The notes below the pieces were generated by a model, which was given only the letters and a program-made list of their open reading frames with translations, ran no database searches and was not told where the DNA came from. This document shows, piece by piece, positions 21,537 to 26,406 of a DNA stretch of 60,172 nucleotides. The DNA lies in contig JANMKN010000308.1 of assembly GCA_031372065.1 (NCBI GenBank), forward strand, positions 1-60,172. Direction: 5' to 3'. The first letter of the stretch is position 1, and each line of letters opens with the position of its first letter. This DNA is from Abditibacteriaceae bacterium. GTDB taxonomy: Bacteria; Armatimonadota; Abditibacteriia; Abditibacteriales; Abditibacteriaceae. The translations under genes were made by a program, and so were the position numbers.

Positions 21537-21669
21537 AAAACTCCTTGGTAAGTTAAGGGCACAGTATGCCCGCAAAATCAAAGGTGAACCATAAATTAGT
21601 CATCTTGCAACATCATTTCCGGCTTTTTACATCCCCAAAAGAGTGTGATTTGTTGGCCTTATGAGCCTG

Positions 21670-21837
21670 CGAGATACGATCTCAGCATCTCAAGATCGTA
21701 TCTTGACCTTCCGAGATCGCATCTTGAGGTAGCGAAATGCTAATTTGCCACTCCGAGATATGATCTTGAGGTGTCGAGATGCTATCTTGAGGTGCCGAGA
21801 TACGATCTTGAGGCATCGAGATGCTATCTTGAGCCTC
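21670..21837. repeat. 21-bp period palindromic array C (8 units, C[G/A]AGAT-N3-ATCTTG-N6)
   Basis: Units at exactly 21670,21691,21712,21733,21754,21775,21796,21817. Confidence 0.92.
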
Positions 21838-22302: not shown

Positions 22303-22336
22303 ATCGCGCCCCGCAACACAAAAGCCGTTCCAAAAA

Positions 22337-22358
22337 GCCCCGTTCGCGGGGCTTTTTG
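22337..22358. terminator. Bidirectional intrinsic terminator
   Basis: aaaaagccccg-ttcg-cggggcttttt hairpin (spans about 22332-22357) between convergent genes. Confidence 0.75.
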
Positions 22359-22398: not shown

Positions 22399-22719
22399 TC
22401 ACTTTTGAATGTCAGTAATGGGACGTAGCCTAACAAGAAAGAGTAAGAAAAGAGCGTGTAGGAGTATAAAAGAAAGGGCCAATAATTCGCCTCCAACCAA
22501 GCCATACTTGTTCATAACAGAACCTAATGTCCATCCATAGATTGTCGCCATAGTTACACTGAAGCACCCATAATCCTCCTTCGCGATTGATGAAAGTTCA
22601 CCACAACGCCGACAAAGGTAAGCCGCCCTTTTTTTCTGGTCGCCTTTTTTGCGAAAGAAGAAACCCGTGATGTTGCAATTAGCCCCACAGTGGGGGCATT
22701 TATTTATCAATCCGCTCAC
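22399..22719 (-). CDS. Hypothetical zinc-ribbon membrane protein (cassette 3)
   Basis: CPHC...CRRC then two hydrophobic segments; AT-rich. Confidence 0.55.
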   Translation of the reverse strand: MSGLINKCPHCGANCNITGFFFRKKGDQKKRAAYLCRRCGELSSIAKEDYGCFSVTMATIYGWTLGSVMNKYGLVGGELLALSFILLHALFLLFLVRLRPITDIQK

Positions 22720-22762
22720 CTCTCATGCTACTTTGTAATTTAACGCTAAGACTCTGGCGCGT

Positions 22763-22829
22763 CCATTTGTCGGCGGTTTCTTCGATGATTTTGGCGGTGG
22801 GTTTGCCTGCGCCGTGGCCCGCTTTAGTT
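22763..22829 (-). repeat. Copy 3 of the prolyl oligopeptidase 3' region
   Basis: Matches 24322-24388 with 2 mismatches in 67 bp; encodes TKAGHGAGKPTAKIIEETADKW. Confidence 0.95.
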
Positions 22830-22835
22830 ATGAAC

Positions 22836-23168
22836 TTATCCCAGCAGCGTGATGGCTTTAGCCAAGACTTGCGCGGTAATTTCATCGGGTAATTTGCATA
22901 TAAAAGCGGCATCTCTGGCTTGCCAATCCAAACTCTTGATTTGGTCTGAAAGAATCGTGCCTGTGACCGCCAAGCCGTCAGGAATATTAACCTCAAACGG
23001 ATAACCTTTGACTTTGTTGGTGACAGGACAAAGTAACGCTAAGCCCACTTTTCGATTATAAGATGCCGGGGAAAGCACAAAGGCTGGACGTTTGCCCGCT
23101 TGTTCGTGTCCGGCTTGGGGATTAAAGTTGAGCCATATGACATCGCCGCGATCAGGAACATAGGCCAT
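22836..23168 (-). CDS. mazF: MazF/PemK endoribonuclease toxin
   Basis: YVPDRGDVIWLNFNPQAGHEQAGKRPA, CPVT, DQIKSLDW. Confidence 0.95.
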   Translation of the reverse strand: MAYVPDRGDVIWLNFNPQAGHEQAGKRPAFVLSPASYNRKVGLALLCPVTNKVKGYPFEVNIPDGLAVTGTILSDQIKSLDWQARDAAFICKLPDEITAQVLAKAITLLG

Positions 23169-23172
23169 AAAA

Positions 23173-23415
23173 CTACCACGCTTCCTTGCCGGTTGATATT
23201 CCGGTTTCTGTTTCGCTGTGCAGATTTTCAGAAGTAACGCCTTCGAGCAACTGAGCTAAAGTCATTTCGGGCTGTGGCACGGCAAACAAAATGATTTTGC
23301 CATCCTCAACCGACATTTCGACAACGGAGTTTTGCCCTAACTGCGATTGAGTAGCCAATGATTTTGGAATGCGGATGGCCAGACTGTTACCCCATTTTTG
23401 AACGCGAGCTTGCAT
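23173..23415 (-). CDS. mazE: MazE/AbrB antitoxin
   Basis: VQKWGNSLAIRIPK, TLAQLL..VT.ENLH.E...G.EAW; RBS before ATG 23415, TATAAT at 23444-23449. Confidence 0.93.
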   Translation of the reverse strand: MQARVQKWGNSLAIRIPKSLATQSQLGQNSVVEMSVEDGKIILFAVPQPEMTLAQLLEGVTSENLHSETETGISTGKEAW

Positions 23416-23472
23416 AAAGCCTTTCCTTTTGTTTCTACTTTGATTATACAAAGCCGTTAAACATTTTAGCCT

Positions 23473-23552
23473 TTATTTCCCCCCAAATTCCACGCTCAAA
23501 TTCGCCATGACAAAGGCCCATTTATGGGCGGTTTCTTCGATGATTTTAGCGG
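23473..23552 (-). repeat. Copy 2 of the prolyl oligopeptidase 3' end, with its own stop codon
   Basis: 23484-23552 matches 24288-24356 with 4 mismatches in 69 bp; reads AKIIEETAHKWAFVMANLSVEFGGK-stop. Confidence 0.95.
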
Positions 23553-23564
23553 ACGCGCGGCGGT

Positions 23565-23753
23565 TCAGGCCGCTTTGCGTTGCGGGCGCGGTTTGGTGTG
23601 TTGGTTTTGGTCTGCGGGTTTGTTGTTGTCGGTGGCTGGGCGATCCAACGCGCCGGAGGTAATCAATTCCTCGATTTTTTCGGCGTTTTCACGCTGGAAT
23701 CTTTCTATCGCCTCTGGGGTATGAGCGTTGCCAAAAACCATTTTGGTTTTCAT
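23565..23753 (-). CDS. Small hypothetical protein (cassette 1, second gene)
   Basis: ATGA overlap with upstream gene, AGGAGG RBS. Confidence 0.6.
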   Translation of the reverse strand: MKTKMVFGNAHTPEAIERFQRENAEKIEELITSGALDRPATDNNKPADQNQHTKPRPQRKAA

Positions 23754-24280
23754 GTTAATTCCTCCTGACGTGCGTCCACGCCGTAGTAACGAGCCATCTG
23801 CGCGTTAGTTTCGCTCAATAGCGTATTCTGTGCGCTTTCGGAGAGGTGCTGGAAACCTTGAGTGTGGCCGACAGCGCGGCGTGCTCGCTCAAGCATTGCC
23901 TGAAATCGTAAAAACGTTAGCTTCGGCGCCTCGCCGGAAGGCAAATTCCAGCCCGCCGGTTTTTCGATGCGATGCTCGTGCCGGGGAGTCACGACTATCA
24001 TTTCCTGCAAAGCAGGTTGATGAAGGAAGTTTTGCCAATCATCCGCGCCGGGTGGCATATCGTTGCGATGGTTGTGCAAAACAGCTACATTGGTCGATTC
24101 TGCCAAATCTACCTCAAATGTAATCTCGTCCGGGGCACTTGGAGGTGCTTCCTGATAATCCAACTGTTCGCCTGTGTCTCTGTCAAGCAAAAAGCCCACT
24201 TCAATCTGGCCCGCAAGGGCGGTTTCCTTCAAATGCCGAATTGCCTTGGTCTGGGCAGGGAAGTAGCTTTTGATATTCAT
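23750..24280 (-). CDS. Hypothetical protein with JAB/MPN-like motif (cassette 1, first gene)
   Basis: ATG 24280 overlaps POP stop (ATGA); IEVGFLLD...LHNHRNDMPPGADD resembles E...HxH-x7-S-x2-D. Confidence 0.6.
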   Translation of the reverse strand: MNIKSYFPAQTKAIRHLKETALAGQIEVGFLLDRDTGEQLDYQEAPPSAPDEITFEVDLAESTNVAVLHNHRNDMPPGADDWQNFLHQPALQEMIVVTPRHEHRIEKPAGWNLPSGEAPKLTFLRFQAMLERARRAVGHTQGFQHLSESAQNTLLSETNAQMARYYGVDARQEELT

Positions 24281-26406
24281 CGCGCCGCAAATTCCACGCT
24301 CAAATTCGCCATGACGAAGGCCCATTTGTCGGCGGTTTCTTCGATGATTTTGGCGGTGGGTTTGCCCGCGCCGTGGCCCGCTTTGGTTTCGATGCGAATG
24401 AGAACGGGCGCGGGGCCGCTTTGCGCGGTTTGCAGCGCGGCGGCGTATTTGAAGGAATGCGCAGGCACCACGCGGTCATCGTGGTCGCCGGTGGTAACAA
24501 GCGTGGCGGGATATTTGGCGCCGGTTTTGATATTGTGCAGCGGCGAATACGCGTAGAGCGATTTGAACTGCGCCGCGTCGTCGCTGGAGCCATAATCGTA
24601 AACCCACGCCGAGCCGATGGTGAATTTGTGAAAACGCAGCATATCCATCACGCCGACAGCGGGCAACGCGACGGCGAAAAGGTCGGGGCGCTGATTGGTA
24701 ACGGCACCGATGAGCAGACCACCATTGGAACCGCCCGCGATGGCTAATTTTTGCGGCGAGGTATATTTTTCGCGGATGAGAAATTCCGCCGCGCCGATGA
24801 AATCGTCGAAGACGTTTTGCTTGTTTTCCTTTGTCCCGGCTTTGTGCCACGCTTCGCCGAATTCTCCGCCGCCGCGCAGATTCGGCACGGCTAAAACGCC
24901 GCCCGCTTCGAGCCACGGCACCATCGTAATCGAAAACGCGGGCGTCAGCGAAATGTTAAAACCGCCGTAGCCGGTCAGATAAACCGGATTTTTGCCGTCG
25001 CGTTTTAGGTCTTTGCGGTGTGTGAGAAACATCGGCACGCGCGTGCCATCTTTACTGGTAAACCACACTTGCTCGGAGGTGTAAGGCGAATTATCGAATT
25101 GAATTTCCGAGCGCCGAAAAAGGCTGTTCTCGCCGCTTTTCACAGCATAGCGAAAAGTCAGCGACGGCTCCAAATACGAAGTAAAGGTGTAGAAAAATTC
25201 GCTGTCATAGCGATTGCCGCCCACGCCGCCGACACTGCCTAAACCGGGCAGCGGCAGTTCTTTGATAAATTGGCCCTGCAAATCGTAGAAATGCACTACG
25301 CTGTGCGCGTTATGCAAATACGTCGCGATGAATTGATTGCCGGCCAACGACACGCTTTGCAAGGTGTCTTCGCTTTCGGGAATGAGGGTTTTCCAATTTT
25401 CGCGCGCCGGTTTTTTGGTATCAATGGCAATGACGCGCCCTCGCGGCGCGGCGGCATCGGTCTTCACATAAAACGTCGCGGCGTCGTTACCGATAACACC
25501 GTAATCGGCTTCAAATTCGTCAATCAGTTTCACAACTGGCGCGCTAAAATCGGGCTGCGTTGCGTCGCGTAAATCCATGTAATACAAGCGGTTTTTCGGG
25601 CCGCTTTTGCTCAGATAAATCAAAGCGTAGCGGCCATCTTCGGTGACATGAGCGCTCATGAGCCATTCGGGTTCGTCGGGGCGCTCATAGATTAATCTGT
25701 CTTCGTTTTGTTTCGTGCCAGTGCGATGATAGAAAATGCGATGGTTCAAATTAGCGGCTTGCAAAGCGGTGCCTTCAACGGGCGCATCATAGCGCGAATA
25801 AAAGAATCCGCGATTGTCTTTTGTCCACGATAGGTCGGAAAACTTAACCCAATTCAACACATCTGGGGCATCTTGCGCATTCTCTACCGAGCGCAAATGA
25901 ATTTCCTGCCAGTCCGAGCCGCCACGCGAAATGCCATAAGCCAATTGCTTGCCGTCATCCGAAATCGCAAGGCCACTGAGTGCCACGGTGCCATCTGTCG
26001 AAAGCGCGTTCGGGTCAAGCAGCACACGCGCCGGAGCCGTTAAATTATCCTGCACCATCAATACCGATTGGTTTTGTAAGCCGCTGTTTTGATAATGAAA
26101 ATAGCGCCCGCCTTCTTTGAAGGGCGCGCCGAATTTCGGGTAATCCCAAATTTTCGTGAGCCGTTCAATCAGCGGCGCACGTTGCGGCAAGGCGCGCAAG
26201 TAATCGAAGGTGACGGCATTTTCGGCCTCAATCCACGCCGCCGTTGCGGGCGAATTGGCATCTTCGAGCCAGCGATATGGATCGGCGACTTGGACGCCAT
26301 GATAATCATCGGTTTGCGCGCCTTGCGCAGTTTTGGGATACGAAATCGGCGCTGAAAAAGCTGAATTTGTCATAAGAAGCAGGGAAATAACGGGAAGCAT
26401 CCGCAT
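24277..26406 (-). CDS. Prolyl oligopeptidase (S9A)
   Basis: DPYRWLED, NLRGGGEFG, GGSNGGLL, DHDDRV, AGHG; start uncertain (26406-26487). Confidence 0.95.
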   Translation of the reverse strand: MRMLPVISLLLMTNSAFSAPISYPKTAQGAQTDDYHGVQVADPYRWLEDANSPATAAWIEAENAVTFDYLRALPQRAPLIERLTKIWDYPKFGAPFKEGGRYFHYQNSGLQNQSVLMVQDNLTAPARVLLDPNALSTDGTVALSGLAISDDGKQLAYGISRGGSDWQEIHLRSVENAQDAPDVLNWVKFSDLSWTKDNRGFFYSRYDAPVEGTALQAANLNHRIFYHRTGTKQNEDRLIYERPDEPEWLMSAHVTEDGRYALIYLSKSGPKNRLYYMDLRDATQPDFSAPVVKLIDEFEADYGVIGNDAATFYVKTDAAAPRGRVIAIDTKKPARENWKTLIPESEDTLQSVSLAGNQFIATYLHNAHSVVHFYDLQGQFIKELPLPGLGSVGGVGGNRYDSEFFYTFTSYLEPSLTFRYAVKSGENSLFRRSEIQFDNSPYTSEQVWFTSKDGTRVPMFLTHRKDLKRDGKNPVYLTGYGGFNISLTPAFSITMVPWLEAGGVLAVPNLRGGGEFGEAWHKAGTKENKQNVFDDFIGAAEFLIREKYTSPQKLAIAGGSNGGLLIGAVTNQRPDLFAVALPAVGVMDMLRFHKFTIGSAWVYDYGSSDDAAQFKSLYAYSPLHNIKTGAKYPATLVTTGDHDDRVVPAHSFKYAAALQTAQSGPAPVLIRIETKAGHGAGKPTAKIIEETADKWAFVMANLSVEFAAR

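What the first reader, a model, noticed from the sequence alone, without database searches (positions are those of the whole stretch)
22399..24388. Cassette array built on repeated copies of the prolyl oligopeptidase 3' end
Seen: on the minus strand the order is POP gene, [JAB-like + 62-aa gene], POP-end copy (69 bp, 4 mismatches, own stop at the same codon position), [mazE-mazF], POP-end copy (67 bp, 2 mismatches, includes the catalytic His motif GHG), [Zn-ribbon membrane gene], terminator. All cassettes are co-oriented and the first is translationally coupled to POP. Four of the six mismatches are synonymous, as expected if the copies came from coding alleles. No integrase or transposase is nearby. 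Established: elements that integrate into gene ends restore the gene and displace the old end; Rhs/CDI loci carry orphan C-terminal modules. Inference: an integrase-free, integron-like hotspot where cassettes enter or leave by recombination at a peptidase 3' end, collecting toxin/defence modules and swapping POP C-termini.
Basis: partly seen in the sequence, partly recalled or inferred. Interest (0 to 1): 0.82.

Follow-up and report, generated by a model that had tools for sequence, protein, structure and literature searches.

The report
Stacked gene-end scars behind a peptidase
Two leftover copies of the end of a peptidase gene separate small blocks of accessory genes, including a toxin-antitoxin pair; about thirty unrelated genes in this genome carry the same scar, which was likely left when incoming DNA from relatives recombined into gene ends, not by a peptidase-specific cassette system.

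Summary
The two copies are staggered, though (they share 35 nt), and copy 2 lacks the gene's last 45 nt. POP is not special. In this genome 34 of 3,710 genes have an orphan copy of their own 3' end downstream (controls 0-2), behind varied cargo, and one gene has three. None of 78 other POP locus records had a convincing end copy. Best reading: insertion with long target duplication, probably by one crossover of circularised DNA from a relative carrying [gene end + downstream genes]. At copy 1 a same-genus genome sides with the working gene 5' of the perfect run and mostly with the dead copy 3' of it, as one crossover predicts. The C-terminal swap is three residues, so the Rhs/CDI analogy fails, and the locus has no attC. 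Two things remain unexplained. Junctions hug the last cargo stop codon (9 of 20 within 12 nt). The closest mazEF relative is an attC-bounded integron cassette, and our junction falls where its attC would begin. The scan had already noted such scars in this genome and others.

The parts
24277..26400 (-). Prolyl oligopeptidase (S9A) gene, host of the insertions; present end …ANLSVEFAAR*
   Evidence: Pfam PF02897 E=4e-129 and PF00326 E=2e-62; single copy in the genome
24285..24388 (-). Duplicated target segment of POP (24285-24356 = copy 1; 24322-24388 = copy 2)
23750..24280 (-). Cargo 1a: 176-aa JAB/MPN-fold protein (E27, H69-x-H71, D80/D81 invariant in 4 sequences), ATGA-coupled to POP
   Evidence: 3 homologues at 45-66%; model and fold search; no Pfam hit
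23565..23753 (-). Cargo 1b: 62-aa ORF, ATGA-coupled to the JAB gene; a distant JAB paralogue on C129 also has a small ORF behind it
   Evidence: function not tested
23473..23552 (-). Displaced POP end, copy 1 (starts 12 nt after the 62-aa stop; own TAA at 23473-23475; terminal codons and next 4 nt resemble same-genus G002)
23173..23415 (-). Cargo 2a: mazE antitoxin
   Evidence: PF04014 E=2.6e-12
22836..23168 (-). Cargo 2b: mazF toxin; the module is 81% identical (nt) to an attC-bounded cassette in family member G017
   Evidence: PF02452 E=1.3e-25
22763..22829 (-). Displaced POP segment, copy 2 (starts 6 nt after the mazF stop; includes the GHG motif; truncated 45 nt before the stop; 45-nt perfect run)
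22399..22719 (-). 106-aa CxxC…CxxC membrane ORF, low GC (0.44); doubtful gene, outside the repeats
22331..22358 (.). Terminator-like hairpin with A/T tracts on both sides, shared with the convergent 121-aa gene

Best explanation
The locus holds two stacked scars of a genome-wide kind of insertion that likely needs no integrase: a DNA fragment from a related bacterium, running from inside the last ~30-150 bases of a gene through that relative's downstream genes, likely closes into a circle and likely integrates by one host-driven crossover in the shared gene end, leaving a working gene, the cargo and a dead copy of the end. Shown: the repeats, their coding-allele pattern, about 30 other genes with the same scar, an empty site and a donor-like site in relatives. 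Inferred: circularisation, a RecA-type single crossover, uptake by transformation, and the order (mazEF first, displacing copy 2, which later lost its last 45 nt; the JAB pair second, displacing copy 1). The 3' bias is inferred to be selection: only a gene end restores the host gene and gives the cargo read-through transcription. Toxin-antitoxin cargo would resist loss between the repeats (inferred).
For: Genome scan: 34 of 3,710 genes have an orphan 3'-end copy downstream (38 copies). Controls were 3' end upstream 1, gene middle downstream 2, middle upstream 0, and 5' end upstream 11; a stricter rerun gave 26 of 3,587 with 0 in all three of its orphan controls. Mismatches fall at codon positions 3/1/2 = 123/53/34, with 104 synonymous vs 73 non-synonymous codons in the ungapped pairs. 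Hosts and cargo are unrelated: Fic, RelE+HTH, DUF433+DUF5615, MazF-like, Imm5, tyrosinase, a Y1 transposase, and 15 of 24 scanned cargo ORFs with no family. The C67 gene carries three displaced ends. Empty sites: at the C90 locus G002 has one gene end followed directly by the gene that follows G000's copy, and G005 lacks the C118 insert. At the C257 site G000 has cargo + copy, G002 has a different two-gene cargo + its own 87-nt copy, G003 has G000's cargo directly behind the gene with no copy, and G001 showed neither within 1.5 kb. Crossover signature: 5' of the longest perfect run relatives side with the working gene (G002 21:11, G003 23:6, G001 16:10), and 3' of it they lean to the copy (48:36, 30:25, 23:22). 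At POP, G002 sides 6 of 6 with the gene on the 5' side and 6 of 9 with copy 1 on the 3' side. Perfect runs exceed the codon-shuffled median in 18 of 26 pairs (p=0.04). ComEC is present in 27 of 27 family genomes. Precedent: in E. coli 56 of 60 such recombinants were duplications from trimmed, recircularised DNA and one crossover, 109-950 bp in the 14 sequenced (PMC3240628, passages).
Against: Repeats of 28-70 nt are short for RecA and shorter than the 109-950 bp seen experimentally. Unsplit, relatives side equally with gene and copy (G002 62:61). The split is clear only in G002 and G003 (Fisher p 0.04 and 0.005; G001 0.33); the sites are not independent, and decay of the dead copy also makes the 5' part gene-like. 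At C161 (G002 7:3, G001 8:2) and C90 (G002 6:1) the 3' part sides with the gene. At POP itself the perfect runs are not longer than chance (mid-p 0.84 and 0.54). Random trimming does not predict junctions hugging the cargo stop codon. No Ku was found in 27 genomes, so the ligation step has no named enzyme. No empty POP site was found: G002 has unrelated genes behind POP. ComEC also rang in 10 of 14 control genomes, so it is weak evidence.
Confidence: 0.55

Rival explanations
1. Homology-facilitated illegitimate recombination or template switching with a long anchor: linear incoming DNA pairs over much of the gene body, and its foreign tail is joined by microhomology to a point inside the gene end, so the whole old end is displaced.
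For: It removes the short-homology problem and explains the variable copy starts (-31 to -172). ComEC is present. Copy 1's terminal codons and the next 4 nt resemble G002.
Against: It predicts a recipient-type copy throughout, but the 5' parts side with the working gene. In the 35-nt overlap POP equals copy 2 while copy 1 differs at 3 sites. HFIR is defined by deletion rather than duplication in PMC3240628 (4 of 60 clones; passages).
Confidence: 0.22
2. The integron integrase helps: it cuts at an attC hairpin and an AAC/GWT site inside the gene end to release the [gene end + cassette] circle, or the hairpin sets the fragment end.
For: G000 has an intact IntI (C351:2964-3899, 419 bits vs cut-off 265) and 18 attC-like sites at E<0.001. 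The closest mazEF relative is attC-bounded, and our junction (…TAA GTTCAT AAC|) falls at the start of the leader, about 10 nt before its attC, on an AAC shared with POP. IntI excision at nearby genomic sites is reported (bioRxiv 10.1101/2022.09.11.507474, passages).
Against: No attC-profile hit lies within 4 kb of any scar host gene. By eye only 3-4 of 38 copies begin at or next to AAC, near chance. Other mazEF relatives show no attC-like flanks by eye. In the donor-like G003 site the hairpin starts about 40 nt after the stop, not at it.
Confidence: 0.1
3. A POP-specific integron-like hotspot that shuffles cassettes and swaps functional C-termini.
For: Two stacked cassettes, co-oriented, one a TA pair; a 372-nt contig in run X3 joins POP to the far side of copy 2.
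Against: About 30 other host genes carry the scar; no convincing end copy in 78 POP locus records; the copies are staggered and the swap is three residues. The X3 join crosses a 45-nt identical core at 3.8x depth, in a run that also holds both cassettes.
Confidence: 0.05
4. An undescribed dedicated system captures whole genes and inserts them at gene ends, setting the right boundary at a stop codon (for example through an RNA or hairpin-defined intermediate).
For: 9 of 20 co-oriented cargo blocks end within 12 nt of the junction, against nulls of 4.8% and 16.5% (p=1.5e-7 and 0.003). G002's independent scar is 2 nt behind a stop. G000 has more scars than other DNA scanned: 26/3,587 vs 2/1,422 (p=0.01).
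Against: No shared junction motif by eye and no candidate enzyme. Cargo is often inverted (28 of 43 genes co-oriented). Later deletion and selection against polar terminators could tighten junctions. The copies look like alleles from other cells, which implies DNA transfer.
Confidence: 0.08

Closest known systems
Insertion with long target duplication (Furuta, Abe, Kobayashi 2010, PMC2853133; passages and Discussion read)
   Same: Short insert (<20 kb) between direct repeats over 30 bp of variable length, no mobility gene, addiction-type cargo, mostly in naturally competent species
   Different: Described for restriction-modification genes and attributed to DNA breakage by them. Here the cargo is varied, the repeat is the host gene's 3' end with its stop, the copies are diverged coding alleles (77-100%), and events stack. 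'stop codon' does not occur in that paper's main text; its supplements were not read.
Single-crossover insertion-duplication of trimmed, recircularised incoming DNA (PMC3240628; passages)
   Same: The homology is a gene's 3' part; the product is gene, foreign DNA and a partial copy; recA-dependent
   Different: A laboratory plasmid in E. coli conjugation, with duplications of 109-950 bp; here natural, 28-146 nt, with junctions tight to cargo stop codons
Integron cassette arrays, CALIN/SALIN and attG insertion (bioRxiv 10.1101/2022.09.11.507474; passages)
   Same: Small co-oriented gene blocks between repeats, TA cargo; the mazEF module has an attC-bounded relative, and the genome has IntI
   Different: The repeats are gene ends, not attC hairpins; there is no fixed crossover; 'duplication' does not occur in that paper's main text
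Orphan rhs-CT/cdiA-CT modules (search listing only; features recalled)
   Same: Displaced 3' gene fragments in tandem behind a full gene
   Different: There the displaced part is a whole toxin domain with its immunity gene; here it is about 22-26 codons, and a swap alters three residues
Integrative elements that target protein-gene 3' ends with a tyrosine or serine integrase (recalled)
   Same: Gene restored, old end displaced, tandem accretion
   Different: No integrase in the cargo or window, many unrelated targets, and crossover segments that differ even at one gene

Membership tests
Insertion with long target duplication | Direct repeats longer than 30 bp around an insert under 20 kb | tested here: met
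   72 and 67 nt around 0.73 and 1.49 kb
Insertion with long target duplication | No other mobile-element gene in the insert | tested here: met
   No integrase or transposase family in the cargo or among 52 window proteins scanned; one other scar in the genome does hold a Y1 transposase
Insertion with long target duplication | Empty site with one copy of the repeat in a related genome | tested here: inconclusive
   Met at the C90 and C118 loci. At POP, relatives have one end but unrelated downstream genes, and the X3 join is ambiguous
Insertion with long target duplication | Insert carries restriction and modification genes (the paper's own search criterion) | tested here: not met
   Cargo is a JAB pair and mazEF; the membership claimed is for the insertion mode, not for the RM class
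Integron / CALIN | attC hairpin closing each cassette | tested here: not met
   A profile built from 8 G000 attC sites found 18 sites at E<0.001 and none within 4 kb of a scar host gene
Integron / CALIN | IntI available in the genome | tested here: met
   TIGR02249 over cut-off at C351:2964-3899, on another contig
Integron / CALIN | Fixed crossover triplet (AAC/GTT, GWT) | tested here: inconclusive
   AAC at the copy 2 junction but not at copy 1; 3-4 of 38 genome-wide by eye
Orphan rhs/cdi C-terminal modules | Displaced fragment encodes an alternative effector domain plus immunity gene | tested here: not met
   Copies encode 22-26 residues of conserved peptidase end; feature recalled
Integrase-encoded element at a gene 3' end | Own recombinase and one att core | tested here: not met
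Single-crossover insertion-duplication | Chimeric repeats, switching allegiance at a perfect run | tested here: inconclusive
   Trend as predicted at POP copy 1 and in the G002 and G003 sums, absent in G001 and reversed at C90 and C161
Single-crossover insertion-duplication | recA dependence and a circular intermediate | not testable with these tools
   needs experiment
JAB/MPN+ metalloprotease fold (cargo 1a) | MPN fold with E…HxH…D metal site | tested here: met
   Best structural matches Cap3, PfJAMM1, RadC (Z 6.0-6.7, rmsd 3.6-3.9 over 102-110 residues; moderate); E27, H69, H71, D80/81 invariant in 4 sequences; Gly where the recalled motif has Ser

The most novel reading that the evidence does not exclude
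Gene-precise capture: the incoming unit is cut at the stop codon of its last gene (at the foot of an attC or other hairpin, or via an RNA end), so whole genes, including integron cassettes stripped of attC, are delivered to gene ends across the chromosome by a specific, undescribed processing step. This would give integron cargo a one-way route into the core genome and explain 'long target duplication'.
Probability: 0.15. Interest if true: 0.78.

Novelty: new variant of a known kind. Interest (0 to 1): 0.45.

Why it matters
The enzymology of 'insertion with long target duplication' was left open in the paper I read (PMC2853133). This genome offers about 30 natural cases with diverged repeats, an empty site, a donor-like site and an independent second use of the same site in a sister genome, so the mechanism can be tested from sequence. 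It shows how toxin-antitoxin and other small genes can be fixed behind ordinary genes, including single-copy ones, without any mobility gene. The POP locus alone is one clear example, not a new system.

Tried and rejected
POP-specific hotspot: 78 POP locus records with at least 1.5 kb downstream (three pairs overlap) gave only one weak 25-nt hit 5.1 kb away, treated as chance. A degenerate pattern for the POP end found 0 metagenome matches. Excision: the X3 contig skipping 1,559 nt is not counted as evidence, because the core is 45 identical nt (longer than the recalled assembly word of 31), depth is 3.8x, and X3 also holds mazF joined to copy 2 and the JAB block. No RNA holder was listed. Unsplit polarity counts were uninformative. 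No common junction motif was seen by eye. Weak hits of the copy 1 flank on C366 and C319 looked like chance coding matches. Prevalence in relatives is only suggestive: G002 1 of 488 genes in 800 kb of about 5.3 Mb (its POP is frameshifted, so gene-end calls are less sensitive), G012 0 of 226 in 400 kb of about 7.5 Mb, other taxa 1 of 708 (G000 vs these alone p=0.11). Short-read assembly may hide long near-identical duplications in all of these. For the junction test I dropped 6 doubtful loci (C3, C44, C122, C172, C197, C286), pairs closer than 300 nt, blocks without a predicted gene and 6 inverted blocks, leaving 20 of 38 copies. For the perfect-run test 5 further gapped loci were dropped, leaving 26. 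The 106-aa ORF had no homologue. The 62-aa ORF was not searched beyond Pfam and the own genome. Paper searches listed no paper on genome-wide gene-3'-end displacement scars; the library lacks most subscription journals, and supplements were not read.


Full report
Observation. On the minus strand the order is POP (24277-26400), a 176-aa ORF, a 62-aa ORF, copy 1, mazE, mazF, copy 2, a 106-aa ORF and a hairpin terminator. Copy 1 (23481-23552) repeats POP 24285-24356 with 5 mismatches in 72 nt and carries its own TAA at the same codon. Copy 2 (22763-22829) repeats POP 24322-24388 with 2 mismatches in 67 nt. No comparable match exists elsewhere in the 6.1-Mb genome. The copies are staggered, however, and copy 2 breaks off 45 nt before the stop. 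Independent contigs of runs X1 and X2 reproduce the array; in X1 a 63-nt collapsed repeat has twice the depth of its flanks (15.6 vs 7.5-8.3). The two best hits that name a family are Abditibacteriaceae (70-71% identity), so the host probably belongs to that family (inference).

Cargo. MazE and MazF are clear Pfam members. The 176-aa protein has only three homologues in the protein database. Its confident model matches JAB/MPN proteins at moderate scores (Cap3 Z 6.7, PfJAMM1 Z 6.6, RadC Z 6.0), and it keeps E27, H69, H71 and D80/81. The 106-aa ORF is doubtful and lies outside the repeats. No integrase or transposase family was found in the window.

POP is not special. I probed the last, middle and first 150 nt of 3,710 genes against their surroundings. 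34 genes have a non-coding copy of their own 3' end downstream, against 1, 2 and 0 in the position controls and 11 for 5' ends upstream, several of which are paralogue arrays. A stricter rerun gave 26 of 3,587 with empty controls. Most copies keep a stop at or near the same codon, and mismatches concentrate at third positions (123 of 210), so they were once working alleles. Hosts are unrelated (DUF1501, DUF1552, a sigma-54 regulator and GH26 by Pfam; gatA-, rluA- and ackA-like by my recall of the sequences). Cargo includes Fic, RelE+HTH, DUF433+DUF5615, MazF-like, Imm5, tyrosinase, a Y1 transposase and many unknowns. One gene on C67 has three displaced ends. Among 78 other POP locus records none had a convincing end copy.

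Relatives. At the C90 site G002 has a single gene end followed by the gene that in G000 follows the copy, a clean empty site. At C118, G005 has the flanking genes adjacent. At C257 four states exist: G000 cargo + copy; G002 a different two-gene cargo (HigBA-like by my reading, not scanned) with its own 87-nt copy starting 2 nt after the last stop; G003 the G000-type cargo directly behind the gene without a copy, which is what a donor should look like; and G001 neither within the 1.5 kb seen. Behind POP, G002 carries unrelated genes, so the empty POP site was not seen. A contig of run X3 that skips both cassettes is ambiguous (see Tried and rejected).

Mechanism. One crossover between a circle [gene end + cargo] and the chromosome makes both repeats chimeric: the dead copy is donor-type before the crossover and resident-type after it. 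At POP, G002 agrees with the working gene at all 6 mismatches 5' of the perfect runs, and with copy 1 at 6 of 9 sites 3' of the run, including the stop and the following 4 nt. POP equals copy 2 across the overlap while copy 1 differs. Summed over loci the same switch appears for G002 (21:11 vs 36:48) and G003 (23:6 vs 25:30) but not clearly for G001. It is reversed at C90 and C161, and decay of dead copies can mimic the 5' half. Perfect runs are somewhat longer than shuffled in 18 of 26 pairs, though not at POP. The same product, a duplication of part of a gene's 3' end around foreign DNA, was the main outcome in an E. coli experiment (56 of 60 clones; PMC3240628, passages); an earlier scan note (e1-9803265) led me to that paper. 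ComEC is present and Ku was not found in the family. I give this route 0.55, a long-anchor illegitimate join 0.22, integrase help 0.10, a dedicated unknown system 0.08 and the POP hotspot 0.05.

What does not fit. Junctions hug the last cargo stop codon: 12 and 6 nt here, and within 12 nt in 9 of 20 co-oriented blocks, against 4.8% for random positions and 16.5% for non-coding ones. The first C67 block, missed by my gene caller, adds another at about 5 nt. Several of the least diverged pairs are short (28-67 nt at 96-98%), so erosion would have to be fast, although long near-identical repeats may be invisible in a short-read assembly. The closest relative of this mazEF module (81% nt, G017) lies between two attC-like sites of the same type as G000's own arrays, and our junction falls about 10 nt before where that attC begins, on an AAC shared with POP. 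G000 has an intact IntI. Yet no attC lies near any scar, AAC is not visibly enriched at junctions, and other mazEF relatives show no attC-like flanks. So the cargo may come from the integron pool, but the insertion mode is not integron recombination as described (bioRxiv 10.1101/2022.09.11.507474, passages).

Comparison and novelty. It works like 'insertion with long target duplication' (PMC2853133; passages and Discussion) and meets its structural criteria, except that the cargo is not RM and the POP empty site is unseen. It is not an integron, not an integrase-encoded island, and not an Rhs/CDI-type effector swap. The gene-end bias, the stacking, the allele chimerism and the stop-tight junctions were not found in six paper searches, which cover open-access text only. 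The scan's own notes report similar scars in this genome and several others; they are unchecked and were not used as support. Verdict: real, one instance of a genome-wide habit, a variant of a known kind; interest 0.45.

Noticed in passing
G000:C67:14031-16881 (L039): A DUF1552 gene followed by three cargo blocks and three displaced copies of its own end; a longer version of the POP array. At a 4-nt diagnostic site the working end matches G003 while all three copies match G002.
   Followed up: partly
L259:2154-2983 (reverse strand; G002) and L260 (G003): The GH26 gene end is used independently in G002 (different two-gene cargo, 87-nt copy, junction 2 nt after the stop), and G003 shows the donor-like arrangement.
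   Followed up: partly
L158:1325-2225 (G017:C63): mazEF as an attC-bounded integron-type cassette next to an IS-like transposase, away from that genome's IntI contig.
   Followed up: partly
G000:C351:2964-3899; attC sites on C351, C109, C2, C365: Intact integron integrase and 18 attC-like sites at E<0.001; IntI is over cut-off in 13 of 27 family genomes.
   Followed up: partly
window 21667-21831: Degenerate 21-nt tandem array with palindromic units between the GH32 gene and the 121-aa gene; no similar sequence elsewhere in the genome. It may be a repeat ORF or a promoter-region array.
   Followed up: partly
G000:C129:8160-8624: Distant JAB paralogue (32% over 85 aa), also followed by an overlapping small ORF, suggesting a JAB + small protein two-gene module.
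   Followed up: partly
window 24355-24384: Run X1's contigs collapse the repeat over 63 nt and show one difference in the POP contig, hinting that POP position 24367 carries copy 2's base in that run (polymorphism, conversion or assembly effect).
   Followed up: no
L043:1024-1160 (G000:C118): A palindromic repeat beside a Y1 transposase inside a scar, with dozens of related copies in G002 and G005; REP/RAYT-like by recall.
   Followed up: no
L038:1-5100 (G009:C3): Long array with a period of about 65 nt upstream of that genome's POP, CRISPR-like.
   Followed up: no
G000:C225:14294-18022, C305:10010-12463, C158:2853-5992: Orphan copies of gene 5' ends upstream (141, 69 and 73 nt), a possible mirror-image class of the same scar.
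   Followed up: no
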